Shown here piece after piece: positions 7,324 to 32,000 of a DNA stretch of 32,000 bases. Origin of the DNA: Pirellula staleyi DSM 6068 (GTDB lineage Bacteria > Planctomycetota > Planctomycetia > Pirellulales > Pirellulaceae); the NCBI GenBank assembly GCA_000025185.1, contig CP001848.1, positions 570,001-602,000 of the forward strand, given 5' to 3'. A model generated the notes under the pieces. That model ran no database searches, was not told where the DNA came from, and worked only from the letters and a program-made list of their open reading frames with translations. Numbering within the stretch: position 1 is the first letter of the stretch; each line of letters begins with the position of its first letter. The position numbers and the translations under genes are program-made.

Positions 7324-7788
7324 TTACGAAATCGACTGCTGATCGCTAGCGGTGGTGGTATCGCCCGACGCCACCAAAATGGCATCGCGACCTTGCTCGA
7401 GCGTTTGCTGAGCATTCTGCATCGCGAGGACTTCGAGCGCCTCTTCACGCGAACCGTAGTGCGGCCAGATTTGCGAAAAACGAGTCGCTACGAGAACCTC
7501 GCTGGCGATTGAGGAAACATTGCAGAGGACCAGTTTTCGGTGCTGTCGTTTCGTGTGCTTCCACAAGTGGACCATCCACTCGAGCATCGTGCTTCCGAAG
7601 TATGGAACACCCGCCAGATCGACCAGCACATCGCGCGAACCGGTCTCTTCGAGGCTTTTCTCGAGCGCTTTCCAGGTGGCGGCCAGATCGAGGTCGCGGT
7701 GCACACCAAACTTGTAGGTCGGTACTACTAGCAACACATGATCGGTCGTTTCGACATGCAGCAGTGGTGAATCATTCATGGTTGTCAT
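7324..7788 (-). CDS. STAS-domain protein (anti-sigma-factor antagonist, SpoIIAA/RsbV-like)
   Basis: 154 aa with a STAS-like layout: VLLVVP...LEKSLEETGSRDVLVDLAGVPYFGSTMLEWMVHLWKH...KLVLCNVSSIASEVLVATRF. A Ser sits at the usual phospho-acceptor position (FGST). Its ATG overlaps the upstream gene's stop as ATGA (7785-7788). Confidence 0.75.
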   Translation of the reverse strand: MTTMNDSPLLHVETTDHVLLVVPTYKFGVHRDLDLAATWKALEKSLEETGSRDVLVDLAGVPYFGSTMLEWMVHLWKHTKRQHRKLVLCNVSSIASEVLVATRFSQIWPHYGSREEALEVLAMQNAQQTLEQGRDAILVASGDTTTASDQQSIS

Positions 7789-8756: not shown

Positions 8757-9088
8757 TGCGCGATTACCCTTGCGTGCGTGATTTTGGGGCGAGAAGCGAT
8801 GTGACAAGAAAAAATGGAGCGAGCGGCTGATAAGCGTCCCCACCAGCCGCGAGTGCGGCGTTCTGGCTACCAGTAGACCATTCTCGAAAGAATTCTACCA
8901 GCCTTGCTCAGCGTAACGAGCCCTGCGCTAACCCGCCCTGAAGATTCCATCAAGAATTGTCGCAAACTGGCTCAGCCAAGGCAAATCGCCCACCGAAGCG
9001 AGCGGCTGAGATTGGGTGGCTCATGCGTTGCGCCGGTAATTCGTGCGGAAATTGACGAAGAAGCGTTCTCAAAAATGGAAGACGCGCT

Positions 9089-19073: not shown

Positions 19074-19343
19074 AGCTGCTACTGCACCGCACCAGGCGCA
19101 TCGCTGGGAATCGGCGGAAACGGGGTGTCGACGAGGGGGGTGACGTCGCGACGAAGATTGACGCGTTGCCATTTAACGCAAAGTCCGTCGCTATTTCATC
19201 ATAGCGGTATTTCTGCGCCGGTAGAGAGTTTCTCGCTCGCGAGGCAAAAATCTCGTGCGCCGAACCTCCACCAGTTGTAGCGGTTATGGCGAACAATCAT
19301 GAAGAACCGGCAGCGCTGCTCATCAGCGAAGTGTACAGTCGGC

Positions 19344-19349: not shown

Positions 19350-19429
19350 CGAATTACCGAGGTTTGGGGGCGTCGCCAGGACCGGCGATCTCGCCACAAG
19401 CTTCTTTTTGTGAAGGAGCAACTGCTCCG

Positions 19430-21658
19430 ATGAAACGCCAATCACACCGCAGCCATTCGACACTCGTCGCGCCTCGTCCTTACGCCCGCATCTGGTTTTG
19501 GTGCGTGCTTCTTCCGGGGCTATTGCTCCTGGCACTCGCGCCAAGTTCGCGCGGAAGTTTGCTGGCACAAGCCGATGCCGAAAAACCAACAGCCGATCCG
19601 GTGAAGCTCGAACGTTTGGTGGTGCCACTCCCCATCGTGGGGAACGTCGACACAATCGTCCGCTCGCAAATCGATCGTTGGCTGAAGACGATCGCAGCCG
19701 ATCAAGCCAACGTCGACAAACGCCCGCTCCTTGTGCTCGAATTTCGTCCCGCTGTCGGAACTGTTGGTGAGGGGAGCGAGTATGAACGCGCACTTTCTCT
19801 CGCACGTTTCCTGGCCAGCGAACGACTAGGACGCGTGCGAACCGTGGCGTTTGTTCCGCAGTCGATCGAAGGACATAGTGTGCTACCGATCCTGGCCTGT
19901 GAGCAACTCGTAATCGGTAAGGATGCAGAGATCGGTAACGCCGGGCGCGATGAAGCGGCGCTCGATCCCACAGTGCGGCGCGGCTATAGCGAAATCGCCG
20001 AACGACGACAAACGATTCCAGCAGCCGTTGCGCTCGGCATGCTCGATAACAAACTGGCAGTCACAATCGCGACGACACCTAATGGTCGACGTTTTGTACT
20101 GAGCGAGGAACTCGAAAAGCTTCGCGCCGCTGGCGAAGTGACGCAAGAGGAAACGCTATTTCACGAGGGAAAGTCGCATAAACTCTCGGGACGCCAATTG
20201 CGGCTCGAATTCAGTTTCGCATCGCATCTGGCAAGCGATTTACGCGAACTAGCCACAGCACTCGAAGTTCCGGTGAACGATCTGACGCGCGCGAGTCTGC
20301 CAACCGACGGCTGGAAGCCGATCCGCATGCAGCTGAGTGGCAACATCACGCGCGGCGAAGTGAATGGGATCATTCGCGCGCTCCGCGCGCAGCTGGAACA
20401 AACCGACGCCAACTTGCTGCTGCTCGAAATCGATTGCACCGGTGGATCGATCGATCACAGCCGACGACTTGCTCAGGAGCTTGTCGATTTACGAAGTCGT
20501 TTGCACACTGTGGCGATTGTCGAGAAGCAAGCGCTCAGCGATGCAGCCATTGTAGCTCTCTCGTGCCATGAACTTCGGGTGACGAGCGAAGCACGTCTGG
20601 GTGGCGCTGGTGCCGCATCATTTACGCCGCCACAGCTAGCCACGGCCAAGCCTGCCATCATGCAACTCGCTGAAGCGCAGAGTCGCGATTGGTCGCTGAT
20701 GATGGGTATGATCGACCGACGCCTCGAGGTTTTTCCCTGCACACGCGAAGTAACGGGACAAGTCCGTTTGCTCTCCGAAGAAGAACGCGAAGCACTCGAA
20801 GATGCTGCTGCGTGGAAGCGTGGCGAAATGCCGGTCAGCACCCTCTCGGGCATTGTTGGCAGCGATCTTATCGCATACGGACAGGCGACACCCATTGAGC
20901 AAAAAAGCGATATTCTGAGGGAATTTCAGCTCGAATCTGACCCGCCTCTTGTTCAAGAGAGCTGGGCTCTCGAAGTTATTCGCTGGATGGCCGACCCACG
21001 GATTGCTGGCCTACTGCTATTTGTCGGTTGGTTCGCGCTAATGTTCGAAATGTCGTCGCCAGGTGTTGGCGTTCCTGGATTCATCGCCGCTCTTTGTTTC
21101 CTGCTCTACTTCTGGTCGGCGTTTCTCAACGGCACCAGCGGCTGGCTCGAAGTGATGCTGTTCCTGTTCGGAATCATTTGCATCCTCGCCGAGATTTTCT
21201 TCATTCCGGGGACTGGATTCTTTGGCATCGGCGGCGCGATTGCGGTGATTGTCAGCATTGTGCTGGCGAGCCAAACCTTTGTGATTCCATCGAATGTCTA
21301 TCAGTTCAAGCAGCTCCCCTTTTCGCTCTCGATGGTGGCAGCAGGACTCGCGGGTGGCATTGGTGCGGTTGTCTTCATGCATAAGTTTTTGCCACACACA
21401 CCCTATCTCAAGCATATGATGCTGCTCCCTCCCACGGGCGAAGAACTCGAAGCGCTCGAGCAGCGCGAAACGATCGTCGACCTGGCTTATTTGGCAGGTA
21501 AGCAAGGTGTGACCACCACGAAACTTGTCCCTTCTGGCAAAGCTCTTTTTGGTGATGAGCTGATCGATGTGCTGAGCGACGGCGAGCTGATCGAACTCGG
21601 TACGAATGTTGTCGTGAAAGAAGTGCTTGGCAACCGTGTGGTTGTTAAACGTGCATAA
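19430..21658 (+). CDS. NfeD-family membrane-bound ClpP-class protease homologue (long form)
   Basis: AAGGAG lies 8-10 nt upstream of ATG 19430. The protein has a signal-like N-terminus and two ClpP/S49-like regions (LLVLEFRP...; LLLLEIDCTGGSIDHS...ALSDAAIVALSCHEL). A multi-TM block spans aa ~545-660 of the listed ORF. The C-terminus has the NfeD OB-fold pattern (GKQGVTTTKLVPSGKALFGDELIDVLSDGELIELGTNVVVKEVLGNRVVVK). Confidence 0.75.
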   Translation: MKRQSHRSHSTLVAPRPYARIWFWCVLLPGLLLLALAPSSRGSLLAQADAEKPTADPVKLERLVVPLPIVGNVDTIVRSQIDRWLKTIAADQANVDKRPLLVLEFRPAVGTVGEGSEYERALSLARFLASERLGRVRTVAFVPQSIEGHSVLPILACEQLVIGKDAEIGNAGRDEAALDPTVRRGYSEIAERRQTIPAAVALGMLDNKLAVTIATTPNGRRFVLSEELEKLRAAGEVTQEETLFHEGKSHKLSGRQLRLEFSFASHLASDLRELATALEVPVNDLTRASLPTDGWKPIRMQLSGNITRGEVNGIIRALRAQLEQTDANLLLLEIDCTGGSIDHSRRLAQELVDLRSRLHTVAIVEKQALSDAAIVALSCHELRVTSEARLGGAGAASFTPPQLATAKPAIMQLAEAQSRDWSLMMGMIDRRLEVFPCTREVTGQVRLLSEEEREALEDAAAWKRGEMPVSTLSGIVGSDLIAYGQATPIEQKSDILREFQLESDPPLVQESWALEVIRWMADPRIAGLLLFVGWFALMFEMSSPGVGVPGFIAALCFLLYFWSAFLNGTSGWLEVMLFLFGIICILAEIFFIPGTGFFGIGGAIAVIVSIVLASQTFVIPSNVYQFKQLPFSLSMVAAGLAGGIGAVVFMHKFLPHTPYLKHMMLLPPTGEELEALEQRETIVDLAYLAGKQGVTTTKLVPSGKALFGDELIDVLSDGELIELGTNVVVKEVLGNRVVVKRA

Positions 21659-21704
21659 TTCCCTCGGAAAACGCTGTTTCTATCCTTAGGAAGAATCTGC
21701 TGCG

Positions 21705-22313
21705 ATGGATGCCGCAATCTGGGCCTCGTTACTGCTGATTGCCGCACTGGTTGTGCTCGTGCTGGAATTCATCATTCCCTCAGCCGGCATTCTCTCGATC
21801 GTTTGCGCCGTGCTGTTTATCGCCGCGATCGTAGTGGGCTTTGCCGATAGCGTTCTCACCGGCGCCACGATCATGGTGGTGGAAGTGGTGTTGATCCCGG
21901 TCGTCTTAGCACTCGCCATCAAAGTGTGGCCCCACACACCTCTCGGTCGCAAGATGCTCCTCACCCCTCCCGAGAATCCCGACGATGTGCTTCCCGAGCG
22001 TTTGCAATCGCGCGAGCTCGATCGCTTGATTGGCAAACGTGGGATCGCCAAGTCTTTGATGCTTCCCAGTGGAGCCATCGAAATTGCAGGGGTGCATTAC
22101 GACGCCACCAGCGAAGGGCAAACGATTGAACTGGGAACCAAAGTCATCGTCGTCAAGGTTTCGATGAACAGTTTGGTGGTCCGTCCCGACACGACGATTG
22201 TCGCCGAGCTCAGCGACTCGTATCAGCCTAGCCGAGCTGCACAGCCTTCAAAGCCCAACCAACCCGAGAGCGATAACCCGCTCGATCAGCAGATGCCTGA
22301 TCCCTTCGCTTAG
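21705..22313 (+). CDS. NfeD-family protein (short form: TM helices + OB-fold domain)
   Basis: Three hydrophobic helices are followed by GKRGIAKSLMLPSGAIEIAGVHYDATSEGQTIELGTKVIVVKVSMNSLVVRP, the NfeD C-terminal pattern. The tail is Pro/Ser/Gln-rich. Confidence 0.7.
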   Translation: MDAAIWASLLLIAALVVLVLEFIIPSAGILSIVCAVLFIAAIVVGFADSVLTGATIMVVEVVLIPVVLALAIKVWPHTPLGRKMLLTPPENPDDVLPERLQSRELDRLIGKRGIAKSLMLPSGAIEIAGVHYDATSEGQTIELGTKVIVVKVSMNSLVVRPDTTIVAELSDSYQPSRAAQPSKPNQPESDNPLDQQMPDPFA

Positions 22314-22405: not shown

Positions 22406-24097
22406 CTACAGTTCCGAATCGTCGCCGTTACCGAAGAAGGTCTTGATGGCTTCCTTCACGGCAACACCGATAGGACGAAGCACACCTTCTTCGATCGACA
22501 TCTTGGCCGAAATGCCACGTTCGACAGGCTCTTGGCTGAAGAGAATCTTGTCGCCTGCATTGGCATCTTCCACAGCCTTCACCACGAGCGGGAGGAGTGG
22601 ACGTTCGTCGATCGAAGCCAGGAACTTGAAGATCGGCAGCATCGCCACGGTGACGCGCGATGGTGGGACCGTCTTGTCAGCCGAGGTGGCCGAGTTGTCG
22701 ATCACTTGCTTGAGCAAGCTTTCGCCATTGCGACCGAAGGCGACGTAGAGGGCAGTCTTGCTCGTGCCGATCGTCCAGATAGCCTTGTCGCCAATCACGT
22801 CGCGAGCTTCCGACCAATCTTCAGGAACTGCTTGCGACACAGTGTGGAAATTCACACCACCGTGCGACGAAACATTGGCCTTGAGTTCGGGGAGATCAGG
22901 TTCGCCTTGGGCATCGACAGCAAGGTCTTTGAAGATCTGTTCGAATTCAGCAGCCTTGGCAAAGTGACCACCAGCAACCACCGTGAAGCTCTTGGGTTCG
23001 AGCATGACCGAGAAGCCGCCGTCGATCTTGCCATCCTTGAGTGCTTCGTCGAGCAGGTCGAACAAGCGCGTGGCATATTTCTTCGAGCCTTCGCGTCGTT
23101 CGGGGGTCAGAACAGGGTCGTTCTCGATGCGATTGAGCAGATCTTTGCGGGCCGCGGTCAGCGTGGCGGCGAACTGCTTCACATCGTCTTCGCTCATCTT
23201 GCCACTGAAGTTTCCGTGCACCGCAGCGCCAGGCATGATAAAGCCGGCGAAGTTGGTTTTGGTGTCGCTAGCGAGGGCAAATTGCTTGGCCAAATCGCTC
23301 CCATCGATCGCCAGTTGCTTGACTTCGAACGTCAGCTTTTTGGTCGTTGGGTCGATCGTCAAACCAAAGAGCATTTCATCGGTTTCGTTGACCTGCTTTT
23401 CGAGCGCGGTCACCAAACCACGGCCAGTTTTAGCGGCATCGTCGGGATTGACGTCGGGACCAACGTCGCTCAGCAGATCGAGGCTCCGTTCAAAAGCATA
23501 CTTGATTTCGTCCATGCCGGCAGCGAGCACATCTTGAGGGATGTTCTTCACCAGGATTTTGGCGGCGATGGTATGGGTCTTCGGCATATCGCCAAGCCAT
23601 GGGGTTGGATCTTGAGGAACGGTGGCAAGCATCGCCTTGTTACGAGCGGCGAAAGCCCAGCCTGCTTGTTCCTTAACGAACAGCTTTTGGCCGTCGTCGA
23701 ATTCCATGATGCCCCCTTCAGTGCTCAGGGGTTCGCCAATTTGTGGCTCGAGAACGGTGAGGAATGCCTTGAGGTTGGTGACGGGGAGGAAGATCAATTC
23801 TTCGATGTCACCTTCGTGTGGCAGCAGCACGACGCCGATTGGCTTGTTGGGGTCGATGCCCGGGGTGTAGAGGCGGAGCAGAGCTACAACGCTCTTCCCT
23901 TCCTCTTCGACGCCAGCAGCGGCAGTCAGATATTTCACATCGTCTTGCAGTTTTTTCACACCGGCGATCGAAACGACGGCGATGGGCTTGGCATCGGCTG
24001 CCACTGCTGCCATGGCGCTCGATAGCAAAATCGCGATGGCACTGGCGGCCGCCACTACGGTGCGAGTGAATCCTCGCGACAGACTTACACAGTTCAC
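22406..24097 (-). CDS. Secreted protein of unknown function
   Basis: Long ORF with balanced composition. I place the start at GTG 24097, which is preceded by AGGAGA with a 7-nt spacer. That start yields a classical signal peptide (MNCVSLSRGFTRTVVAAASAIAILLSSAMAAVA/ADA). I recognise no domain. The ORF stays open upstream to 24256. Confidence 0.6.
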   Translation of the reverse strand: MNCVSLSRGFTRTVVAAASAIAILLSSAMAAVAADAKPIAVVSIAGVKKLQDDVKYLTAAAGVEEEGKSVVALLRLYTPGIDPNKPIGVVLLPHEGDIEELIFLPVTNLKAFLTVLEPQIGEPLSTEGGIMEFDDGQKLFVKEQAGWAFAARNKAMLATVPQDPTPWLGDMPKTHTIAAKILVKNIPQDVLAAGMDEIKYAFERSLDLLSDVGPDVNPDDAAKTGRGLVTALEKQVNETDEMLFGLTIDPTTKKLTFEVKQLAIDGSDLAKQFALASDTKTNFAGFIMPGAAVHGNFSGKMSEDDVKQFAATLTAARKDLLNRIENDPVLTPERREGSKKYATRLFDLLDEALKDGKIDGGFSVMLEPKSFTVVAGGHFAKAAEFEQIFKDLAVDAQGEPDLPELKANVSSHGGVNFHTVSQAVPEDWSEARDVIGDKAIWTIGTSKTALYVAFGRNGESLLKQVIDNSATSADKTVPPSRVTVAMLPIFKFLASIDERPLLPLVVKAVEDANAGDKILFSQEPVERGISAKMSIEEGVLRPIGVAVKEAIKTFFGNGDDSEL

Positions 24098-24567
24098 GTT
24101 TAACTCTCCTGGGGAAACATCGGCCGAAAGGGCCAAGCGGTCCGCCACGATTGGCAACCGCATCAATGGTCGTGCAGTTCTATACCCACCTGGCGGTGGT
24201 TTGGTTTTGCCGCTTCTGTGCGACAAAGGAACAATTGCCAAAAGAATCGCTGCCACCTTAAGGGATGGGCGAACGTTCAGCGCCGGTTACTGTCGCCTGT
24301 TCGCGGGGTAAGTGCAACAGGAGATAGCACTTTCCACCCATTTGTGCGCCCGGCCCGAGTGCATTCAGAACGAGATTTCAGCTGCCATCAGCAGGCGGTC
24401 TGCTCTTGCCGCTTGGCCAAGGGTGATCGATTCTCGGGCAGTGCGCTGCAGCCAAACTGTCCAGCACGGGAGGAATTTTTCCGGAGAATCCCGCGCCTTT
24501 TGCGCAGCCCAGATCGGCGCGCGAAAAGAGATGGAAAACGTAGAAAGAGGGTGATGCGGAGTGCTTT

Positions 24568-24869: not shown

Positions 24870-25072
24870 TCGGGCTCCCGAGGCCAGAAATGCGCAAGGG
24901 AAGCCGGGAAACCTAAACCATAGGGCTAAGGGTGGTGGTTGAGAACCTAGCCCCTCCGGGATACACTGGAAGGCTGGTTTTTTGTGGGCTCGTCGGTGGT
25001 CTGATCAGCACCAACTGGCATGCCGGTTGCGGCAAGGAGCGGCAATTCTCGTTACGCGTGTGGGAGATCGTG

Positions 25073-25720
25073 ATGTCACTTGCAGCCAAACTGGTGGTCG
25101 TCGGAGGCGAAGTGAAGACAGCGGAGATTAAACTCCGGCTGCCTTCGACCATCGGCCGAGGACGCGACAGTACGATCATGCTGCGGCACCCGCTGGTGAG
25201 CCGTCTGCACTGCGAACTGTACGAGCAAGATGGTCAGCTGATGGTGCGCGATCTCGGCTCACTCAACGGCACCTTCATAAACAACCAGAAGATCACGGAA
25301 TCGTCGCTCCCCCCTGGTGAACTCCTGACGGTCGGAACTGTCACGTTTCGCGCGGTCTACGATTCGGCCGATACAGCGGCGAGTGCTCCACCCGCAGCGG
25401 CTGCCGAGCGAACCGCCACCTCTGCGCATCAAGCTACCACCGTCCGAGCACCTGCCAAAAGCAAACCCGAGGCTGGTCATCACGCTGGAAATGGGAAATC
25501 GGCTCCCCCTCCTTCCATCACTCCTCCCTCGGGAAGTGATCTCGGCGGCACCGAGCGAGCTGATGCCACGCTCGAAGAACTCGACGACGTGGAGGAAATT
25601 CTCGATCCCACTTCGCTCGGCTCTGGCGCCATTGAAAAGACCGAATCGATTGAAGAGATCGAGACGATCGAAGATGAGGATGAAGACGACCTCAACGACT
25701 TCCTCAAGAACATCAAATAG
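25073..25720 (+). CDS. FHA-domain protein with Ala/Pro-rich linker and strongly acidic C-terminal tail
   Basis: FHA motifs are present: TIGRGRD, VSRLHCEL, VRDLGSLNGTFINNQKI. I prefer the start at ATG 25073 (GGGAG upstream). The tail is EELDDVEEILDP...IEEIETIEDEDEDDLNDFLKNIK. Confidence 0.8.
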   Translation: MSLAAKLVVVGGEVKTAEIKLRLPSTIGRGRDSTIMLRHPLVSRLHCELYEQDGQLMVRDLGSLNGTFINNQKITESSLPPGELLTVGTVTFRAVYDSADTAASAPPAAAAERTATSAHQATTVRAPAKSKPEAGHHAGNGKSAPPPSITPPSGSDLGGTERADATLEELDDVEEILDPTSLGSGAIEKTESIEEIETIEDEDEDDLNDFLKNIK

Positions 25721-25732
25721 CTCTTAAGAGCA

Positions 25733-26260
25733 TTAAATAGGTGGTCGGATCTTTGCGAGTGCCTCGGGCGGTGTCTCGCGGAGCGATGCCCACCAGCTAA
25801 TCAGTAAAACGACGATGATGGTCGGCAGAAAAATCTGATGTAGCACAACGAATCGGTTCTTTGTCTCCTCAAGATACTCTGAGCGCATGGCTGCGGAACT
25901 CGGGCCAAGATAGCCTGTCAGATTGGCGCTGAAGGTGAATCCCAGCAGCAAGAGAAGGCAAGCGATCTGCATCACCGTTGGCACTGGTCTTGTACGAATG
26001 CCCCGCTGAGCCACCACGCCGATCGCGAGGGGAACTCCGACCCATACGAGGATCAGCATGCCCTGTCCACTCCAGCGATGAAAATCGGGAGTCGCTTCGC
26101 TGCGAAAAATACCCGAGCCTAGGACCGTGGCCTGTACGGCGAGCGTGGCCAGCGCGATCGCCTGTCCTAATTGCCGCGCGAGCTCACGTTCGTAGCGCGA
26201 GGCGATCCAGCCGACCGCAATCATCATCGGGAACAGCACCAGCCGAATCGAGTCGCTCAC
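25733..26260 (-). CDS. Hypothetical integral membrane protein (about 4 TM helices)
   Basis: Hydrophobic helices include IRLVLFPMMIAVGWIA, QAIALATLAVQATVLG, GMLILVWVGVPLAIGVVA, VMQIACLLLLLGFTF and LHQIFLPTIIVVLLISWW. The start at GTG 26260 forms a GTGA overlap with the GNAT stop, which suggests translational coupling. An alternative start is ATG 26227. Confidence 0.5.
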   Translation of the reverse strand: MSDSIRLVLFPMMIAVGWIASRYERELARQLGQAIALATLAVQATVLGSGIFRSEATPDFHRWSGQGMLILVWVGVPLAIGVVAQRGIRTRPVPTVMQIACLLLLLGFTFSANLTGYLGPSSAAMRSEYLEETKNRFVVLHQIFLPTIIVVLLISWWASLRETPPEALAKIRPPI

Positions 26261-26781
26261 GCGGTGGCTCCCAGCGCTGCGTGATACGACACTACTCCAC
26301 GTAGCTTTTGTTCGCCGATCGAGAGCATCTGAAAATACTCGGGAGGTACGCCTTCGAGAACACAGTGGGGATCGTAACGAAATCCAAATCGTCGGTAAAA
26401 CGTGGGCTCGCCAAGCACTACACAACCATGAGCATCGAGTTCACACAAAGCCGCCAGGCCTGCCACCACCAGGGCCGTTCCAATTCCTATCCGCTGATAA
26501 TCGGGATGGACCGAAATCGGACCGAGCCCGAACCATTGCAGTGAACCATCCGTGCAGGTGATGGGCGAAAAGGCGATGTGACCGACGAGCTGTCCCTCGA
26601 TTTCAGCTACAAGCGATACTGAGAGTGCGTCGGCGTTTCGCAGCGCATCGACGATGAAATGCTCGGTGTGACTGGTGTGCTCCGCATCTCGAAACGCTCG
26701 CTCGGTGAGCGATCGGATGGCAGAGAGGTCGGCGCTCGTTTCGGGCCGAATAGTCGGCGAGGCTAGTTCATCGCTTGGCAC
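26257..26781 (-). CDS. GNAT-family N-acetyltransferase (YhbS-like)
   Basis: IRPETSADLSAIRSLTERAF..., LVAEIEGQLVGHIAFSPI, ISVHPDYQRIGIGTALV (acetyl-CoA-binding Q/RxxGxG/A motif) and YYRRFGF are present. Confidence 0.8.
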   Translation of the reverse strand: MPSDELASPTIRPETSADLSAIRSLTERAFRDAEHTSHTEHFIVDALRNADALSVSLVAEIEGQLVGHIAFSPITCTDGSLQWFGLGPISVHPDYQRIGIGTALVVAGLAALCELDAHGCVVLGEPTFYRRFGFRYDPHCVLEGVPPEYFQMLSIGEQKLRGVVSYHAALGATA

Positions 26782-26868: not shown

Positions 26869-29800
26869 CTACTGACAAGCGCTCGAGGTCAGGAGCGGCT
26901 GCCAATCGATGTCGCTGCGGCAATGCAGCCGCGCTGCCAGCTGCGCAAGGTCGCTTCGATGCTCGATGATCGACGCAGCCAGATGCGCGAGCGACAAACT
27001 CCCCTGCTCCACACAGATCACCAAATCGCTATCCGCCTGCGCTAGAAGGGTTGGATCTTGCGTGAACTGATCTTTCCCGAGACGCTGTCCTACTAGCGAT
27101 GGTGTTAGTCCGGCGGCACTTTTCTGCGGGACAAGGCAGACCAAGCGACGCTCGCCACCAAAGCGACTTTCGGTCGGTAGCATCGAAGTCAGACACTGCG
27201 AAAGCACTGCATTCTTGCCATCCGCACCGTCGCCGCTCGAAGGATCGGTGATCAGCAACCGCGCGAGATCAATCTGCTCGAGTCGCGCCAACAGCACCCG
27301 CCGCAACTGCTGCTGCATCGCTGCGAGAAGCACTTCGCGTTTGTCGTTGCCACCCATGATCATGGCGCGCATGCCGCCAGCCGGTACGATCGTCGATTCC
27401 ATCAACGATTGATCAACTTCAGCCGCGAGGGCGTCGAGGTTCGATACTAGTTGCTCCATCACAGCTTCTTTGAGCTGCAACAGTTGCTCGGCTTGGGGGC
27501 TCGCTTCGCTCTCACTTGCTTCCGCCACTTCGCCAGTGATTTGCTGCGACAGATGCGTTAGTTCTCGACCAAAATCAAAAAGCCAGTCACTAACACCCAG
27601 AAGCGAGCCTTGCACGGCAACCACAAGCTGCCCGGTGAGGGCGCTGTTGGTCTCGATCATCCTGAGTCGGCACAAACGGAGTACTGCGGCTTGCACTTCT
27701 GCAAGCGTTGGCTTCTTGACACCACGGCTCGACTTGGGATCGGGGTGGGCAATTGACTGGAGTGCACGTTCGATTTGAATCGACTCTTGTTCCATCCGAG
27801 TACGCATTTCGCGCAGCTGTCCGCTGATCCCCTTCAAATGCGCTTCGAGCCATTTCACGCTCTTCTGCGCACCACGCAAACGATAGTGAGGATCTTCGAG
27901 CATCATCTCGAACCACTTGCGACAAGTGGCAGTGAAGGGAGCGACGAGGCGCGGCAATTGTTCCTCAATCGCCAAACGGAGCGGGCTGGGCTGAATCGGC
28001 GCTAGTTCATCTCCGAGCACGCGGCGTCCGAACAGATCTCCCACCGCAACGAGCCACGGATCAATCGGTAAATCAGCGCTATTGCCACGATGTTTCAAAA
28101 GCGCTGCAAAGACTTGCTCGGGATCGCCCCCCAGCTGTTCAGCTGCGGCGGCGTGGAGCAAATTCATCAGTGGTTCGAGCGTCAGACCGGCCGACTCGAC
28201 CAGCTGAGCCATTTGCGATTCCACTTCCTTTTCCCGCGACAAAACGGGGGGCGTGACTGTCGTGCTAGGGGATGCACCAAACTGGCGGGTCGACTTCTTG
28301 GGATCGGATTTTTTGACATCACCTTGCCAGCGCTGCACCACAGCTTCGCCGACGCGAGCCGCGATCTTGTCGAGCGCAACATCGTGCGAAAAACCAATCT
28401 GACAAATGCCAAACGTGCGTAGCCAACGCAGCTGCGAGTTATCGACGCTGCTCATTTCGCGCCGGCAACCTTCAAAGAATGCAGCCGATGGCGATTGTGT
28501 TTCGATCGCCAGGAAGTCAGCCACTTTTTGACAAGCCGACTCATACTGCGGAGCGCTCATCTCCAGTCCGAGCGTACTGACATAGACGTGATCAAACGGC
28601 GTTGTGCCGATGGAAGGTGTCTTCAGTCCCAGCGCACCATCGCCAGGATAGACCGCTTCACGATGTTCGAGCTGCGCGAGTTCTTCGAGCAGTGCGAACG
28701 AATTGACTTGCGCAAGCTGCTGCGACTGTGGATTGCGATTCGTACCCGACAGCAGCACACCACTCACACCAGCATGCGCGTGACCAAGTTCGGCCAAGAC
28801 TTGCCGTGCGGCGTAGCCAATGTCGATCACCATGCCGCTTCCGGTTCCGCCAGCGATCGAGGCGACCACAATCACGCGGGGTGAAAGTTGGTTGCTGCTA
28901 CCACTGGAAATTGCCAACTTCATGACTTGTCGCAGCTTGGCCCAAATCAAGTCCGACGAGTCGACCATCGCCAAACGCCCCAGAGGACGAAGCCCTTCGG
29001 TTTGCAGCGAGCGCGGAATGTTGTAGAGCCAGCGGCGCGAGAGCCACTCGAGAATTTTTCGCGAATCGGTGCGATAATCCTGCGTTTTACGAAGGGGAAG
29101 ATGGACCGTATCTTCGGGATCGAGCGCTGCACTGCCGGTCTGCGTCACAGCGCGCGAGAGGTCGCGCGAATCGGTGTCGAGCAGAATCATGGCTGCTTGC
29201 TGTTCTGCAGGAAGATCAGCCTGGCGTTTCCGCAATGCACTCAGCACCCGCCCTGCTGTGCCACCAATCCCAATCACGATGGTGGGTGGAGCCACTTGCT
29301 GCGGCTCGACCTTCAGCGGAGGAAGATCGATCGCGGGAAGAGATGCCTCGAGTCCTTCGAGTGAAGTGGTCCACGGACCACTTGCACGCGGCTCACCCGT
29401 GTCGCTTCCGTATTGCTGAACCAGGTCGCTCGCTGCATCGAGATCGCGCTCGATATCACTCGTGCCACGCGATGTTTGGGCTCGGCCATCGCGCGACGGA
29501 ATTGCGCCGTGCGATTGATGCGCTGTGCGGTCGGTCACATTACCTGAGTCGCTGGCGCCATCATGGTTTTCGGATGGTTTAGCAAGTGCGTGGGCCTGTG
29601 TCTTGCCGAGGGTAGCGCTGTCGCCAGTCACCGGTGTTGCGGGCGAACGTGGAGCAGCAACAGCAGCTTCTGCCGCGCGGCGCGGAGCGCTCTGCAGCAT
29701 CTCGACCAGTTCGCGGCAGCTGTTAAAGCGGTCTTTCGGATTCTTCGATAGCGCGCGCCCCACCACCGTTTGATCGTAGGCCGGGAGTGGCAATAAACGG

Positions 29801-30489
29801 GGACGCGCATTGAGATGCTGGGCAGCGAGCTGCGCTGCTGTTTTCCCGGGAAATGGCAGCATTCCCGTCAGCATCTCTTGATACACAATCGCCAAACTAT
29901 ACTGATCGCTGCGCTTGCTCGGACGCCCTTCAAACACTTCAGGCGGAGCATAAACGGGTGTCAAACCACCCATCATCGAAGCGGTGCAATCTTGAATATC
30001 TTTCACCAGACCGAAGTCGGCCACCTTAATGCGGCCACCCACGATCAGCATGTTCTCGGGTTTCACGTCAAGGTGCTGCAGCGAATGCTGCTCGCTCATG
30101 TAGTCGAGCGCGTCGGCGGCATCGTGCAGATGCTGCAGCAACTCTTCGCGAGCAATACCGGTCTGTCCCGCTTTGCGGCACTGCTCGTAACGATCCTTCA
30201 AACTGCAATCGGCAAGTTCGGTAACGATCAGCAGTTGACTATCGACCACCTCGATCCGCTCGAGCGAGAGCAAGAACGGATGCCGGACACCCTTGATGCG
30301 ATTGAGCGCTTTGAGCTCGCGCGCTGCACGGTCTTCATCGAGCAAGCCGTAGACGAACTTGATCGCCTTGATCAGCTGCCCCGGAGCTTCAGCCGTCCAG
30401 ACTTCGCCGTAGCCGCCAGCGCCAATGCGCTGCACAACCCGGTAGCCAGGAATCGGTTCAGGTGATCGTGAAACGAGTGGGGAAGACAC
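26869..30489 (-). CDS. Ser/Thr protein kinase fused to a tubulin/FtsZ-like GTPase domain (Tubulin_2-like) with long helical C-terminal region
   Basis: GTG start at 30489; an in-frame stop 5 codons upstream leaves no other start. Kinase motifs: GAGGYGEV, AIK, HLDVKPEN, DFG, APPE (aa ~15-270). A low-complexity linker covers aa ~270-400. The tubulin-like region has IVIGIGGTAGR (aa ~404-414) and ASIAGGTGSGMVID (aa 543-556; AGGTGSG = nt 28834-28854). About 500 further aa look mostly helical. Confidence 0.8.
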   Translation of the reverse strand: MSSPLVSRSPEPIPGYRVVQRIGAGGYGEVWTAEAPGQLIKAIKFVYGLLDEDRAARELKALNRIKGVRHPFLLSLERIEVVDSQLLIVTELADCSLKDRYEQCRKAGQTGIAREELLQHLHDAADALDYMSEQHSLQHLDVKPENMLIVGGRIKVADFGLVKDIQDCTASMMGGLTPVYAPPEVFEGRPSKRSDQYSLAIVYQEMLTGMLPFPGKTAAQLAAQHLNARPRLLPLPAYDQTVVGRALSKNPKDRFNSCRELVEMLQSAPRRAAEAAVAAPRSPATPVTGDSATLGKTQAHALAKPSENHDGASDSGNVTDRTAHQSHGAIPSRDGRAQTSRGTSDIERDLDAASDLVQQYGSDTGEPRASGPWTTSLEGLEASLPAIDLPPLKVEPQQVAPPTIVIGIGGTAGRVLSALRKRQADLPAEQQAAMILLDTDSRDLSRAVTQTGSAALDPEDTVHLPLRKTQDYRTDSRKILEWLSRRWLYNIPRSLQTEGLRPLGRLAMVDSSDLIWAKLRQVMKLAISSGSSNQLSPRVIVVASIAGGTGSGMVIDIGYAARQVLAELGHAHAGVSGVLLSGTNRNPQSQQLAQVNSFALLEELAQLEHREAVYPGDGALGLKTPSIGTTPFDHVYVSTLGLEMSAPQYESACQKVADFLAIETQSPSAAFFEGCRREMSSVDNSQLRWLRTFGICQIGFSHDVALDKIAARVGEAVVQRWQGDVKKSDPKKSTRQFGASPSTTVTPPVLSREKEVESQMAQLVESAGLTLEPLMNLLHAAAAEQLGGDPEQVFAALLKHRGNSADLPIDPWLVAVGDLFGRRVLGDELAPIQPSPLRLAIEEQLPRLVAPFTATCRKWFEMMLEDPHYRLRGAQKSVKWLEAHLKGISGQLREMRTRMEQESIQIERALQSIAHPDPKSSRGVKKPTLAEVQAAVLRLCRLRMIETNSALTGQLVVAVQGSLLGVSDWLFDFGRELTHLSQQITGEVAEASESEASPQAEQLLQLKEAVMEQLVSNLDALAAEVDQSLMESTIVPAGGMRAMIMGGNDKREVLLAAMQQQLRRVLLARLEQIDLARLLITDPSSGDGADGKNAVLSQCLTSMLPTESRFGGERRLVCLVPQKSAAGLTPSLVGQRLGKDQFTQDPTLLAQADSDLVICVEQGSLSLAHLAASIIEHRSDLAQLAARLHCRSDIDWQPLLTSSACQ

Positions 30490-30823: not shown

Positions 30824-31987
30824 TTAGGTAGGAAGCCCAACGCCAGGGATGGGCCATTCAATTGTCGTCGGCCGGCCGTAATGATCTCCCTGAGCATAAC
30901 GACAGCCGAGCGAACGACAGGTTTGTGCTTCGTTATCACTATGCACACCAGCCGCCACCAGTTGCGCGCCGATCTCCCCCGCAGCTTCCACAAGCGCTTT
31001 GATCTGACGCTGACGTTCGCTGCTGCGATCAACGCCTCGCGCCAGCGATGGCGAGAGCTTGATAAAGTCAGGAGCGAAGTCCTTTTGACTTTTGATCTGA
31101 TGCTGGCCCCCTGCAAAACCGACGTAAGCAACTCCTAATCCGAGTGCACGAAGACGATCGACAAAGTGGCGAAAGTACGGAATATCAACCACCGCTGAAT
31201 CGGGAATTTCTGCCACAACACGCTTGCCACCACTCACCGACGTGAGCGAAGCAAGAGACAGCGGCAACGCATCGGCTCCCACTTCGGCAGGCTGCAGATT
31301 CAGCAGCAACCACTGCGCGCCGGGCATCGTGGCGGCTTGTTCAGCTGCGAGTAAACGGTGCAGCTGTTGGGCTCGCTCGGTGAGTCGACAATCGGTCGAT
31401 TGCAACAGACGCTCGGCAGTGGTGGGCTCGAGTCCCGCGAGTTGCGGCCGGCGGATCGCTTCATACCCAACAGTGATTCCATCGCGTAAGTCGACGATTG
31501 GCTGAAAACGATTCCGTGCCGCGCGATGCAGCAGCATCTCCTGCTGCGCTCGTACCGCTTTCACGAGCAAAATAGCCGCATCATCGACACCATCCGACAT
31601 CGTTTCACAGGAATCCATCGGCTGCGTTACGGTTTTTCGAGTCGCCTCATCTCCCTTGGAATGAAAGCTAAACTCGACATCCGCTATCACCAACAAATCG
31701 CCATCGTGCAGCACCGTTTCGTCGATCTTCTGACCGTTCAAAACGGTACCGTTGGTACTCTTCAGATCGCGGACGCGAAACTGCGAGCCGTCGAACAAAA
31801 TCTCGGCATGCTCGCGTGATACTTTCGACGACAAGATCTGATAGTCGCACGATTCGTTCCGTCCCACCGTGAACGGAAACTGCTCGAGAGGGATCTGTTC
31901 CACCTGCCCCGAGGAGTCGCTCCGCTGAAGCCACGGAGTGAGCGTTTGCGTCGCGGAAAGCATCTTTGTGCGCATATGCACTGCCAC
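30824..31987 (-). CDS. FHA domain + degenerate EAL domain protein
   Basis: FHA motifs: TVGRNES, VSREHAEI, VRDLKSTNGTVLNGQKI. The EAL fold is recognisable from FQPIVDLRDGITVGYEAIRR, LLLNL, VVAEIPDS, VGFAGG, FIKLS, VAAGVHS and AQGDHYG. The listed start is GTG 31987 and an ATG lies at 31975. The frame is still open to the window edge, so the true start could lie beyond 32000. Confidence 0.75.
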   Translation of the reverse strand: MAVHMRTKMLSATQTLTPWLQRSDSSGQVEQIPLEQFPFTVGRNESCDYQILSSKVSREHAEILFDGSQFRVRDLKSTNGTVLNGQKIDETVLHDGDLLVIADVEFSFHSKGDEATRKTVTQPMDSCETMSDGVDDAAILLVKAVRAQQEMLLHRAARNRFQPIVDLRDGITVGYEAIRRPQLAGLEPTTAERLLQSTDCRLTERAQQLHRLLAAEQAATMPGAQWLLLNLQPAEVGADALPLSLASLTSVSGGKRVVAEIPDSAVVDIPYFRHFVDRLRALGLGVAYVGFAGGQHQIKSQKDFAPDFIKLSPSLARGVDRSSERQRQIKALVEAAGEIGAQLVAAGVHSDNEAQTCRSLGCRYAQGDHYGRPTTIEWPIPGVGLPT

Positions 31988-32000
31988 CTTGCCCGCAGAA

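What the first reader, a model, noticed from the sequence alone, without database searches (positions are those of the whole stretch)
26869..30489. Hanks-type Ser/Thr kinase covalently fused to a tubulin/FtsZ-like GTPase domain
Seen in sequence: one uninterrupted 1206-aa ORF. The N-terminal ~270 aa carry every catalytic kinase motif: GAGGYG glycine loop, AIK lysine, HLDVKPEN catalytic loop, DFG and APPE. The catalytic loop is a non-RD variant, because HRD reads HLD. After a ~130-aa low-complexity Ala/Pro/Ser linker comes IVIGIGGTAGR, which resembles the FtsZ/tubulin T1 glycine loop. About 135 aa later comes ASIAGGTGSG. Its AGGTGSG core (nt 28834-28854) matches the PROSITE tubulin signature [SAG]-G-G-T-G-[SA]-G exactly. 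A ~500-aa region that looks helical follows. Established knowledge: this layout matches the 'tubulin-like' Pfam family Tubulin_2 (PF13809). Tubulin/FtsZ GTPases polymerise. Most Planctomycetota lack FtsZ. Inference: the kinase may be tethered to a polymerising GTPase, acting either as a scaffold-localised kinase or as a phospho-regulated filament. I am not aware of any characterised example, and the two FHA readers nearby fit a dedicated pThr circuit. This is my best candidate for an undescribed system in the window.
Basis: partly seen in the sequence, partly recalled or inferred. Interest (0 to 1): 0.82.

Follow-up and report, generated by a model that had tools for sequence, protein, structure and literature searches.

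The report
Known kinase–FtsZ-like (FtsZl1) fusion protein
This Pirellula staleyi gene really does fuse an active Ser/Thr kinase to a tubulin/FtsZ-like GTP-binding domain, but the architecture has been in the literature since 2010 (the FtsZl1 family) and its function is still untested; what is new here is that it nearly always sits beside an FHA–EAL partner gene.

Summary
One 1206-aa ORF (26869-30489, minus strand) carries a Hanks kinase with every catalytic motif, including an invariant HLD (non-RD) loop. After a disordered linker comes a Pfam Tubulin_2 domain (E = 2.4e-60). A confident AlphaFold model of that domain matches CetZ, tubulin, FtsZ and TubZ.

The fusion is genuine. It is full-length in at least 118 orthologs, the kinase is in the same ORF in 75 of 80 loci, and relatives occur in at least 540 Planctomycetota genomes.

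It is not undescribed. Makarova & Koonin (2010) defined this family as FtsZl1 and reported the planctomycete N-terminal kinase. A reviewer of that paper named the P. staleyi gene's EAL neighbour, and papers from 2023 and 2024 repeat the architecture. I found no experimental work.

Polymerisation remains unproven. The T1-T4 nucleotide loops are conserved, but no conserved T7 catalytic residue or FtsZ-type C-terminal domain is detectable. The C-terminal 480 aa form a helical stalk plus a small α/β domain with no PDB match.

New here:
- An FHA–EAL gene is adjacent in 48 of 51 evaluable loci.
- Its EAL is catalytically degenerate in the window's lineage and canonical in others.
- A degenerate REC–GGDEF–CBS gene and a classic-clade AAA+ ATPase also recur nearby.

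Verdict: real, already known, functionally open.

The parts
26869..30489 (-). Whole gene: Ser/Thr kinase–FtsZl1 fusion, 1206 aa plus stop codon. It is identical to the protein NCBI annotates as 'serine/threonine protein kinase' in P. staleyi DSM 6068.
29680..30444 (-). Hanks-type kinase domain (aa 16-270). Key residues: G-loop G23-G28, K44, E58, H139-L-D141 (non-RD), K143, N146, D158-F-G, A181-P-P-E184.
   Evidence: Pfam Pkinase E = 5e-29. All catalytic residues are invariant in 118 orthologs, and the domain averages 79% identity to the query.
29290..29679 (-). Low-complexity Ala/Pro/Ser/Thr linker (aa 271-400), presumably disordered.
   Evidence: Only 16% mean identity and many indels among orthologs.
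28336..29280 (-). FtsZl1 / Tubulin_2 nucleotide-binding domain (aa 404-718). Its loops are T1 G407-x-G-G410, T2 D438-T-D440, a T3-like block at aa 485-510 and T4 at aa 546-552.
   Evidence: PF13809 E = 2.4e-60. AF2 pLDDT is about 90. Foldseek matches CetZ, tubulin, FtsZ and TubZ with E down to 3.7e-6. Conserved residues are listed.
28834..28854 (-). T4 loop, AGGTGSG, which matches the tubulin signature motif.
   Evidence: G547 and G552 are invariant; T549 and G550 are about 80% conserved in orthologs.
28969..29037 (-). The most conserved block of the GTPase domain, RRWLYNIPRSLQTEGLRPLGRLA (aa 485-507). It comprises the family-specific insert plus the T3-like loop.
   Evidence: At least 95% conserved in 135 divergent representatives, yet it is the lowest-pLDDT stretch of the domain model.
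27169..28236 (-). All-helical stalk of long antiparallel helices (aa ~752-1107).
   Evidence: AF2 models. No significant PDB fold match; best E = 0.12.
26872..27168 (-). Small C-terminal α/β domain (aa ~1108-1206) ending in the conserved motif R-L-H-x-R-x-D-[IV]-x-W.
30824..31987 (-). Partner gene directly upstream on the same strand. Its FHA domain (aa 40-101) has intact pThr-binding residues. Its EAL domain (aa 147-373) has only 5 of 10 catalytic residues: DD is replaced by VG and E-G-V-E by A-G-V-H.
   Evidence: Pfam. Adjacent in 48 of 51 evaluable loci.
24932..25720 (+). FHA-only protein, convergent with the kinase gene. It is a possible second pThr reader but is conserved only in the closest relatives.
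   Evidence: Pfam FHA E = 4e-17. Homologs lie immediately downstream and convergent in L002, L021 and L085.

Best explanation
SHOWN. The ORF is one genuine gene. It encodes the planctomycete (mainly Pirellulales) form of the FtsZl1 / Pfam Tubulin_2 family. From N to C terminus it has:
- a catalytically complete non-RD Hanks Ser/Thr kinase;
- a disordered linker of about 130 aa;
- a tubulin/FtsZ-fold nucleotide-binding domain with conserved T1-T4 loops;
- a helical stalk of about 350 aa;
- an α/β end domain of about 100 aa.

It forms a conserved gene pair with an FHA–EAL protein encoded directly upstream.

INFERRED (most likely mechanism).
1. GTP binding to the FtsZl1 domain drives self-association of the GTPase-plus-stalk module. 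This need not be a canonical FtsZ protofilament.
2. Self-association concentrates the kinase domains, which do not depend on activation-loop phosphorylation.
3. The kinases phosphorylate Thr residues in trans, in the linker and/or in the invariant S494/T497 loop.
4. The partner's FHA domain docks on these pThr sites and brings its EAL domain to the assembly.
5. In P. staleyi that EAL domain is catalytically dead, so it would act as an adaptor or possibly a c-di-GMP sensor. In Bythopirellula, Lacipirellulaceae and Thermoguttaceae it is intact and would hydrolyse c-di-GMP locally.

The kinase fusion is a Rosetta-stone version of the separate kinase-plus-FtsZl1 gene linkage seen in other phyla.
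For: - Domain identity: Pkinase and Tubulin_2 hits. All kinase catalytic residues and the HLD loop are invariant in 118 orthologs.
- The kinase is the most constrained part of the protein: 79% mean identity against 43% for Tubulin_2 and about 30% for the C-terminus.
- Fold: the AF2 model of aa 394-1206 has pLDDT 89.9 and pTM 0.85. There are 78 PDB matches at E <= 1e-3; the 50 listed, led by CetZ (3.7e-6), are all tubulin/FtsZ-superfamily entries.
- Nucleotide-binding residues G409, D438, aa 485-510, G547/G548/G552 and D556 are at least 95% conserved in 135 divergent representatives.
- The fusion is conserved: same ORF in 75 of 80 loci, at least 540 genomes, and 561 cluster representatives at E <= 1e-30.
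- Partner: FHA–EAL is adjacent in 48 of 51 evaluable loci and in 44 of 45 under a stricter flank criterion. The linkage survives three different gene orders, and also the case where kinase and FtsZl1 are called as separate genes.
- The FHA pThr-binding residues are conserved in all 58 sequences: GR and TNG identical throughout, the S-x-x-H Ser and His in all listed variants.
- The EAL has 10 of 10 canonical residues in 19 loci and 1-6 of 10 in 38 loci. The window's copy has 5 of 10.
- Literature: kinases are frequent members of FtsZl1 operons in other phyla (PMC2875224).
Against: - No experiment exists for any FtsZl1 protein.
- No conserved acidic T7-like residue: D703 is only 21% conserved among divergent representatives.
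- No FtsZ/tubulin C-terminal activation domain is detectable, so GTP-driven assembly is an assumption based on the superfamily.
- Sequence profiles alone do not reach FtsZ or tubulin.
- The phospho-acceptor sites and the FHA docking are inferred only.
- A 334-nt gap separates the two genes in the window, so co-transcription is not shown. No promoter or terminator signal was found in the gap either.
- The two Anatilimnocola MAG loci (L010, L013), L021, and the A. aggregata genome locus (L082) lack the adjacent partner.
- With only 5 of 10 catalytic residues, the window's EAL may have lost c-di-GMP binding altogether.
Confidence: 0.5

Rival explanations
1. Canonical cytomotive filament. The FtsZl1 domain forms FtsZ/tubulin-like GTP-hydrolysing protofilaments that carry a tethered kinase, and it substitutes for the missing FtsZ in planctomycete budding or division.
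For: - Tubulin/FtsZ fold with conserved T1-T4 loops.
- Planctomycetes lack FtsZ (PMC3160578).
- The gene is vertically inherited and near-universal in Pirellulales (PMC2875224).
- From general knowledge, every characterised member of the superfamily polymerises.
Against: - No conserved T7 catalytic residue.
- No FtsZ-type C-terminal domain; the C-terminus is a novel helical stalk.
- The family's discoverers could not align T6-H7 and allowed that it may not form filaments. Wickstead & Gull say the same.
- In other phyla FtsZl1 coexists with FtsZ, which argues against a division role.
- The tubulin-like STK is absent from some planctomycete lineages, namely Ca. Uabimicrobium and Saltatorellus.
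Confidence: 0.15
2. Intramolecular GTP switch, by analogy to ROCO/LRRK2. The tubulin-fold domain is a non-polymerising nucleotide sensor whose GTP or GDP state allosterically gates the kinase in cis. The stalk only mediates dimerisation or partner binding.
For: - A GTPase and a kinase sit on one chain, and the kinase is the most conserved part.
- The nucleotide-pocket residues are conserved, but the inter-subunit catalytic loop is not.
- pTM 0.85 indicates a compact GTPase-stalk unit.
Against: - A disordered, poorly conserved linker of about 130 aa separates the kinase from the GTPase, which is awkward for tight allostery.
- No tubulin-fold protein is known to act as a monomeric switch (general knowledge).
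- In other phyla, and in L084, the kinase is a separate protein.
Confidence: 0.25
3. Anti-phage or conflict system, in which the kinase–GTPase protein acts as an infection sensor or effector.
For: The kinase domain matches the PADLOC models PD-T4-6, mad6 and MkoA and NCBIfam MADS6. In related loci the neighbouring AAA gene weakly matches the anti-phage ATPase IteA (2e-6, far below its cut-off).
Against: - All defence-model matches cover only the generic kinase domain. There is no hit for the Tubulin_2 part or for the FHA proteins.
- The locus is syntenic and vertically inherited across hundreds of Pirellulales genomes, among housekeeping and signalling genes. It does not look like a variable island.
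- No nuclease, toxin or other effector domain is present.
Confidence: 0.04
4. Sequencing or assembly artefact that fuses two separate genes.
For: One metagenomic relative (L084) has the kinase and Tubulin_2 parts called as two genes overlapping by 46 nt.
Against: The same single ORF occurs in a finished genome and in more than 118 independent full-length orthologs and 75 of 80 loci. The L084 split is more likely a frameshift or a local secondary split.
Confidence: 0.01

Closest known systems
FtsZl1 family (Makarova & Koonin 2010, Biol Direct 5:33), equal to Pfam Tubulin_2 PF13809
   Same: Full-length match to the family model. [quoted passage not shown] The paper explicitly reports the planctomycete subgroup with an added N-terminal protein kinase, and a reviewer cites the P. 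staleyi gene's EAL neighbour.
   Different: Nothing essential; this is a member. The vWA, OmpA and P-loop GTPase neighbours proposed for the family are not conserved here. Instead the conserved neighbours are FHA–EAL, REC–GGDEF–CBS and a classic AAA+ ATPase.
FtsZ / tubulin / CetZ / TubZ cytomotive GTPases
   Same: Same N-terminal Rossmann-like GTPase fold (Foldseek E down to 3.7e-6). T1 (GxGG), T2 (DTD against NTD), T3-like (EGxRPxGR against GAGANPEVGR) and T4 (GGTGSG) loops are present.
   Different: - No conserved T7 catalytic Asp or Glu.
- No recognisable C-terminal activation domain.
- Family-specific inserts between T2 and T4.
- A C-terminal extension of about 480 aa (helical stalk plus α/β domain) with no PDB match.
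- Polymerisation is undemonstrated.
Ser/Thr-kinase regulation of FtsZ (for example mycobacterial PknA acting on FtsZ) and STK-plus-FHA pairs (PknB–FhaA, PknG–GarA, T6SS PpkA–Fha1). These examples are from general knowledge.
   Same: A Hanks kinase is functionally tied to a tubulin-superfamily GTPase, and an FHA protein is encoded next to the kinase as the presumed pThr reader.
   Different: Here the kinase and GTPase are one polypeptide, the kinase is non-RD and has no transmembrane or sensor domain, and the FHA reader carries an EAL domain.
ROCO / LRRK2-type proteins (GTPase and kinase on one chain)
   Same: A covalent GTPase–kinase pairing, which suggests nucleotide-gated kinase signalling.
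   Different: The GTPase is tubulin-fold rather than Ras-like Roc–COR, the domain order is reversed, and the two are joined by a disordered linker. This is analogy only, with no homology outside the kinase.
Degenerate-EAL c-di-GMP receptors (FimX, LapD). From general knowledge.
   Same: The partner's EAL domain has lost catalytic residues (DD and the EGVE glutamates) while keeping the fold-level Pfam match.
   Different: It is combined with an FHA domain rather than GGDEF, PAS or HAMP domains. c-di-GMP binding is untested. Orthologs in sister families keep a fully canonical EAL.

Membership tests
Hanks-type (eukaryotic-like) Ser/Thr protein kinase, Pfam PF00069 | Profile match above the curated threshold | tested here: met
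   101.9 bits against a cut-off of 31.7, E = 5e-29.
Hanks-type (eukaryotic-like) Ser/Thr protein kinase, Pfam PF00069 | Catalytic residues: Gly-loop, VAIK Lys, αC Glu, catalytic-loop Asp and Asn, DFG Asp, APE Glu | tested here: met
   G23-G28, K44, E58, D141, N146, D158 and E184 are all present and invariant in 118 orthologs.
Hanks-type (eukaryotic-like) Ser/Thr protein kinase, Pfam PF00069 | RD subclass: Arg preceding the catalytic Asp | tested here: not met
   The motif reads HLD, with Leu140 invariant in 118 of 118 orthologs. This makes it a non-RD kinase. It does not affect membership of the superfamily.
FtsZl1 / Pfam Tubulin_2 (PF13809) | Full-length profile match above threshold | tested here: met
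   205.1 bits against a cut-off of 27, profile positions 1-355 of 356.
FtsZl1 / Pfam Tubulin_2 (PF13809) | Architecture: FtsZ-like domain, then an extended helical or coiled-coil region, then an α-helical C-terminal part | tested here: met
   AF2 secondary structure shows an α/β domain at aa 403-722, helices at aa 752-1107 and a small α/β end domain. The family description is in PMC2875224.
FtsZl1 / Pfam Tubulin_2 (PF13809) | Planctomycete subgroup with an N-terminal protein kinase | tested here: met
FtsZl1-centred 'membrane remodelling' operon (vWA, P-loop GTPase and OmpA neighbours; Makarova & Koonin 2010) | A vWA-domain gene in the same predicted operon | tested here: not met
   The only vWA gene in the window (BatA/VWA, 16719-19172) lies about 7.7 kb away with unrelated genes between. 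It has a homolog in just 1 of 80 related loci.
Tubulin/FtsZ superfamily of polymerising GTPases | N-terminal GTPase-domain fold | tested here: met
   Foldseek against the PDB gives 78 matches at E <= 1e-3; the 50 listed are CetZ, γ/α/β-tubulin, Odin tubulin, FtsZ and TubZ, with TM (target-normalised) 0.37-0.51. The model has pLDDT 89.9.
Tubulin/FtsZ superfamily of polymerising GTPases | T1 and T4 glycine-rich phosphate-binding loops at the S1-H1 and S4-H4 junctions | tested here: met
   G407-x-G-G410 follows strand 403-408. AGGTGSG (aa 546-552) follows strand 538-544 and leads into helix 548-567.
Tubulin/FtsZ superfamily of polymerising GTPases | T7 'synergy' loop with a conserved acidic residue that completes the neighbouring subunit's active site | tested here: inconclusive
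Tubulin/FtsZ superfamily of polymerising GTPases | C-terminal (activation) domain of the FtsZ/tubulin type | tested here: not met
   There are no FtsZ_C or Tubulin_C Pfam hits. The C-terminal 481-aa model has no PDB match better than E = 0.12, and those weak matches are generic helical bundles. Makarova & Koonin reached the same conclusion.
Tubulin/FtsZ superfamily of polymerising GTPases | GTP-dependent head-to-tail polymerisation | not testable with these tools
   This needs biochemistry and EM. No published data were found.
FHA phosphothreonine-binding domain (partner gene 30824-31987) | Conserved pThr-contacting residues: G-R, S-x-x-H and T-N-G | tested here: met
   GR (aa 42-43), SREH (aa 57-60) and TNG (aa 78-80). 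GR and TNG are invariant in all 58 sequences, and the Ser and His of S-x-x-H are kept in all listed variants. Pfam E = 5.8e-20.
Active EAL c-di-GMP phosphodiesterase (partner gene 30824-31987) | The ten catalytic and metal-binding residues: E, N, E-x-x-E, DD, K, E-G-V-E, Q | tested here: not met
   The window reads E N E D V G K A H Q, which is 5 of 10. DD is replaced by VG and the two glutamates by A and H. All 38 orthologs in the upstream, same-strand position are degenerate (1-6 of 10). The 19 orthologs in other gene orders have 10 of 10.
Anti-phage kinase systems (PD-T4-6, MADS mad6, Mokosh MkoA) | Match beyond the generic kinase domain, or the system's partner genes | tested here: not met
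   PADLOC and NCBIfam matches are confined to aa ~12-350, and the NCBIfam scores are far below cut-off (73.6 against 460 for MADS6). The FHA neighbours have no PADLOC hits.

The most novel reading that the evidence does not exclude
The kinase–FtsZl1 protein is the core of a vertically inherited, Pirellulales-wide module that has not been described as such. Its other parts would be the FHA–EAL partner, a degenerate REC–GGDEF–CBS protein and, in many lineages, a classic-clade AAA+ ATPase encoded directly upstream. Together they would form a tubulin-superfamily assembly controlled by phosphorylation and c-di-GMP, with its own AAA+ remodeller, analogous to spastin/katanin with tubulin or Vps4 with ESCRT-III. 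This assembly would act in budding division or membrane remodelling of these FtsZ-less bacteria.
Probability: 0.12. Interest if true: 0.85.

Novelty: already known. Interest (0 to 1): 0.38.

Why it matters
FtsZl1 is the most divergent branch of the tubulin/FtsZ superfamily, and no member has been studied experimentally in the 15 years since it was described. Planctomycetes divide without FtsZ by unknown means.

The covalent kinase fusion and the conserved FHA–EAL partner shown here give concrete, testable handles:
- a K44A kinase-dead mutant;
- T4-loop mutants;
- FHA Arg and Ser mutants;
- lineages with an intact EAL compared with those with a dead EAL.

These could show whether FtsZl1 assembles, what the kinase phosphorylates, and whether c-di-GMP is involved. 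As a discovery claim, however, the fusion itself is not new.

Tried and rejected
- Sequence search of aa 394-1206 against PDB chains, and a 13-sequence domain profile against the PDB, gave nothing significant. TubZ appears only at E = 1.7, on the T4 loop.
- hhalign of the domain profile against E. coli FtsZ aligned only S1-T1-H1-S2 at 1.6% probability, so it could not map T5-T7.
- The word-indexed search with the Tubulin_2 domain alone returned mostly fragments.
- The first genome scan, with the single sequence, chose poorly conserved peptides and found nothing. Repeating it with the alignment worked.
- The exact P. staleyi protein is not indexed for a context look-up, so genes beyond the window edge were inferred from the 78%-identical relative L085.
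- Defence-system reading: rejected.
- vWA association: rejected, because the vWA gene is not conserved nearby.
- Riboswitch or other RNA in the 334-nt gap: no Rfam hit in the window, and no promoter or terminator consensus in the gap.
- D703 as a T7 catalytic residue: rejected after it fell to 21% conservation in divergent representatives.

Full report
**1. Observation.** The window contains one uninterrupted 1206-aa ORF at 26869-30489 on the minus strand. The last two translate exactly from nt 29248-29280 and 28834-28854. Pfam gives Pkinase at E = 5e-29 (aa 16-231). It gives Tubulin_2 (PF13809) at E = 2.4e-60 over aa 404-718, covering the whole profile. The neighbours include an FHA+EAL protein (30824-31987, same strand, directly upstream) and an FHA-only protein (24932-25720, opposite strand).

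**2. Origin and reality of the fusion.** The protein is 100% identical to a Pirellula staleyi DSM 6068 protein that NCBI annotates as 'serine/threonine protein kinase'. The first 118 hits are full-length orthologs (40-78% identity, about 1150-1220 aa) with the same Pkinase+Tubulin_2 architecture. Those that carry a source name are from Pirellulaceae or Anatilimnocola. An exhaustive search with the non-kinase part found 1806 cluster representatives at E <= 1e-3 and 561 at E <= 1e-30. Nearly all of the top 150 are about 1150 aa long with the match starting near residue 350, and the five of these that I scanned all carry Pkinase+Tubulin_2. A scan of one genome per species confirmed 540 relatives among the 600 rows allowed. 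The best 80 are all labelled Planctomycetota except one 3-kb contig labelled Ca. Nealsonbacteria, which is probably mis-binned. In 75 of these 80 loci the kinase and Tubulin_2 parts share one ORF, and the other five are contigs truncated at the 5' end. An assembly artefact is excluded.

**3. The kinase.** In 118 aligned orthologs every catalytic residue is invariant: the G-loop, K44, E58, D141, K143, N146, D158 and E184. So is Leu140 in the HLD motif, which makes this a fixed non-RD kinase. The kinase is by far the most constrained part of the protein: 79% mean identity to the query, against 43% for Tubulin_2, 28-31% for the C-terminal regions and 16% for the linker. From general knowledge, non-RD kinases usually do not need activation-loop phosphorylation. 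Regulation would then come from localisation or clustering, which fits a tethered-kinase design.

**4. The GTPase-like domain.** An AlphaFold2 model of aa 394-1206, built on a 99-sequence alignment, is confident (pLDDT 89.9, pTM 0.85). Foldseek against the PDB gives 78 matches at E <= 1e-3. The 50 listed are all tubulin/FtsZ-superfamily proteins: CetZ2 (3.7e-6), CetZ, γ-tubulin, αβ-tubulin, Odin tubulin, FtsZ and TubZ. Each is aligned over about 310-370 columns with target-normalised TM of 0.37-0.51. In the model the GxGG loop follows the first strand and the GGTGSG loop sits at the strand-4/helix-4 junction, which are the T1 and T4 positions in tubulin and FtsZ. Across 135 divergent representatives, the residues that are at least 95% conserved are:
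- G409 (T1);
- D438 (T2, 'DTD' against 'NTD' in FtsZ);
- the block R485-D510, RRWLYNIPRSxxTEGxRPLGRLA, whose second half resembles the FtsZ T3 loop GAGANPEVGRNA;
- G547, G548, G552 and D556 (T4 and H4);
- E603, G641, R676 and W721.

Nucleotide binding is therefore well supported.

**5. What is missing for a canonical filament.** Makarova & Koonin could not align T6-H7 or any C-terminal domain in FtsZl1. I could not do better at sequence level: profile against PDB was not significant, and hhalign against E. coli FtsZ aligned only S1-H1-S2. The one candidate T7-like acidic residue, D703, is conserved among close orthologs but only 21% conserved among divergent ones. The C-terminal 481 aa were modelled separately (pLDDT 86.8). 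They form long antiparallel helices plus a small α/β domain, with no significant PDB match; the best is E = 0.12, to chemoreceptor, dynamin-stalk and XaxA-type helical bundles. Polymerisation is therefore an inference from superfamily membership and is not supported by identifiable interface elements. One oddity remains: the most conserved block (aa 485-507) is the lowest-confidence stretch of the domain model (pLDDT 59-66). That is expected for a loop that becomes ordered only on binding a ligand or partner. It contains the near-invariant S494 and T497.

**6. Genomic context.** An unbiased clustering of flanking ORFs across the 80 loci and targeted searches gave four results.

(i) An FHA–EAL gene is adjacent in 48 of 51 fully evaluable loci (44 of 45 with a stricter flank criterion), with a median gap of 13 nt. 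It occurs in three arrangements: immediately upstream on the same strand (as in the window), immediately downstream on the same strand, or divergent with one gene in between. The linkage also holds where the kinase and FtsZl1 parts are called as separate genes (L084), and on the contig of P0321, which begins at the FtsZl1 gene.

(ii) The FHA pThr-binding residues are conserved in all 58 sequences: GR and TNG are identical throughout, and the S-x-x-H Ser and His are kept in all listed variants. The EAL catalytic set is 10 of 10 in the 19 loci with the downstream or divergent arrangement. These are labelled Bythopirellula, Lacipirellulaceae, Thermoguttaceae or, more broadly, Pirellulales or Planctomycetota. 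It is only 1-6 of 10 in the 38 loci with the upstream, same-strand arrangement. The window's own copy reads ENEDVGKAHQ against the canonical ENEEDDKEEQ, which is 5 of 10.

(iii) A divergently transcribed REC–GGDEF–CBS gene lies beyond FHA–EAL in about 35 loci, including the 78%-identical nearest relative L085. Its GGDEF motif reads G-x-x-R-F in all 12 most common variants, so it is degenerate. In P. staleyi this gene would lie just beyond the window edge.

(iv) A highly conserved protein of about 450 aa occurs in 38 loci. It sits directly upstream of the kinase gene in the canonical-EAL lineages, and about 3 kb upstream in about half of the window-like lineages. It is not within 9 kb in the closest relatives of P. 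staleyi. By profile search it is a classic-clade AAA ATPase: ATAD1/Msp1 5e-6, spastin 1.5e-5, then VCP/Cdc48, NSF, Rpt and Vps4.

The window's GNAT, small membrane protein and 616-aa ORF are not conserved neighbours. The FHA-only gene is conserved, convergent and immediately downstream, only in the closest relatives L002, L021 and L085. The vWA gene in the window (BatA-like, 16719-19172) is distant and not conserved, so the vWA/OmpA/GTPase 'membrane remodelling' operon proposed in 2010 does not apply here.

**7. Mechanism.** Shown:
- an active-looking non-RD kinase covalently linked by a disordered tether to a tubulin-fold nucleotide-binding module with a helical stalk;
- a conserved FHA-bearing partner.

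Inferred (my best reading, confidence about 0.5 as a whole):
1. GTP-dependent self-association of the FtsZl1-stalk module clusters the kinase domains.
2. The kinases trans-phosphorylate Thr in the linker and/or the S494/T497 loop.
3. The partner's FHA domain docks there.
4. The EAL domain links the assembly to c-di-GMP. It would hydrolyse c-di-GMP where it is intact, and act as an adaptor or sensor where it is degenerate, as in P. staleyi.

Kinase genes are common in FtsZl1 operons of other phyla, so the fusion reads as a Rosetta-stone for a general kinase–FtsZl1 partnership.

Rivals:
- a canonical cytomotive filament that replaces FtsZ in division (0.15);
- a ROCO-like intramolecular GTP switch without polymerisation (0.25);
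- a defence system (0.04);
- an artefact (0.01).

**8. [quoted passage not shown] They also noted vertical inheritance in Planctomycetes. [quoted passage not shown] Wickstead & Gull 2011 list the function as unknown and say the protein possibly does not form filaments. The 2023 FtsZ/tubulin evolution paper (PMC9871819) equates Tubulin_2 with FtsZl1 and repeats the point about the planctomycete kinase N-terminus. The 2024 survey of planctomycete STKs (PMC11032199) states that the tubulin-like domain is the most common partner domain of cytoplasmic STKs. I found no biochemical, structural or genetic study, and no solved structure of the family.

**9. Verdict.** The finding is real and correctly diagnosed at the domain level, but the fusion is already known, down to this very gene. 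My analysis adds:
- structural confirmation of the tubulin fold;
- evidence that canonical polymerisation elements are absent or unrecognisable;
- a novel-fold C-terminal stalk;
- the strength and variants of the FHA–EAL linkage, including the split between dead and intact EAL domains;
- two further recurrent neighbours, a degenerate GGDEF protein and a classic AAA+ ATPase.

Interest is moderate (0.38). This is a long-standing uncharacterised family in an FtsZ-less phylum, and it now has clear experimental handles, but the finding would not surprise a specialist.

Noticed in passing
L084:3516-4859 (+); also L028:7543-8907, L046:7507-8856, L056:4462-5985 and others. Not in the window.: A highly conserved protein of about 450 aa (60-70% identity across families) recurs in 38 of 80 loci. 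It is a divergent classic-clade AAA ATPase: Walker A GAPGNGK[ST]T, Walker B LLIDDFG, and a second region of homology AFLRRIPYKIE. Profile hits are ATAD1/Msp1 5e-6 and spastin 1.5e-5, followed by VCP, NSF, Rpt and Vps4. It lies directly upstream of the kinase–FtsZl1 gene in lineages with a canonical EAL, and about 3 kb upstream in many window-like lineages. It is absent within 9 kb in the closest relatives of P. staleyi. Its N-terminal ~150 aa are unassigned, and it has no Pfam family above threshold.
   Followed up: partly
L085:1573-3036 (-) and L083:6576-7994 (-). In P. staleyi the gene would lie just beyond window position 32000.: A REC–GGDEF–CBS gene is transcribed divergently from the FHA–EAL/kinase pair in about 35 loci. 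Its GGDEF signature reads G-x-x-R-F (Glu replaced by Arg) in all 12 most common motif variants, so it is probably not a cyclase. It is often followed by a gene with an NTP_transf_4 (PF13562) domain.
   Followed up: partly
window 30824-31987 (-) and its orthologs in L006-L080: The state of the partner's EAL domain tracks gene order and lineage. It has 10 of 10 catalytic residues where the gene is downstream or divergent (19 loci). It has 1-6 of 10 where the gene is immediately upstream on the same strand (38 loci, the window's arrangement). This suggests a lineage-specific loss of phosphodiesterase activity with the FHA function retained.
   Followed up: yes
window 24932-25720 (+); 25733-26781 (-): In the nearest relatives (L085, L002, L021) the FHA-only gene lies convergent and immediately downstream of the kinase–FtsZl1 gene. 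In P. staleyi, a GNAT acetyltransferase (26257-26781) and a small, probably membrane-protein ORF (25733-26425, overlapping the GNAT ORF by 169 nt) are inserted between them. The true start of the FHA-only gene is probably the internal ATG at Met48.
   Followed up: partly
window 28969-29037 (-), aa 485-507: The most conserved block of the FtsZl1 domain, RRWLYNIPRSxxTEGxRPLGRLA, is at least 95% conserved in 135 divergent representatives. It is also the least confident part of the AlphaFold domain model (pLDDT 59-66, below 50 at three residues). It contains the near-invariant S494 and T497, which could be phospho-acceptors or γ-phosphate sensors.
   Followed up: no
window 14416-19172 (-): Two adjacent large genes look like a Bat-type (aerotolerance) pair: one has BatA_N + VWA_2 + a ThuA-like domain, the other GATase1_like + DUF7408. 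vWA proteins were proposed partners of FtsZl1 in 2010, but this pair lies about 7.7 kb away and is not conserved next to the orthologs.
   Followed up: partly
window 19364-22313 (+) and 22406-24256 (-): Two NfeD-family genes lie here: a 764-aa gene with NfeD1b_N, the membrane domain and NfeD_C, and a 202-aa gene with NfeD_C. They are followed by a 616-aa ORF with no Pfam hit. An NfeD gene and a 574-aa protein with no Pfam hit also lie downstream in the nearest relative L085, so this part of the synteny is local.
   Followed up: no
L084:4943-8514: In one metagenomic relative the kinase (367 aa) and FtsZl1 (837 aa) parts are called as two genes overlapping by 46 nt. This is either a frameshift error or a real secondary split. 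Several kinase-less representatives of about 800-840 aa exist in the exhaustive search (for example P0207, P0226, P0237, P0321), and at least one of them sits at a contig start.
   Followed up: partly
L023 (JABMRB010000618.1, 3260 bp): One homologous locus is labelled 'Candidatus Nealsonbacteria'. All the others are labelled Planctomycetota (one only as 'uncultured bacterium'). On a 3-kb contig this is most likely a binning error rather than horizontal transfer.
   Followed up: no
window 7785-8843 (-): A response-regulator receiver domain is fused to an HATPase_c_2 domain (RsbW-type anti-sigma or serine kinase-like). It is another signalling protein in the window, unrelated to the finding.
   Followed up: no
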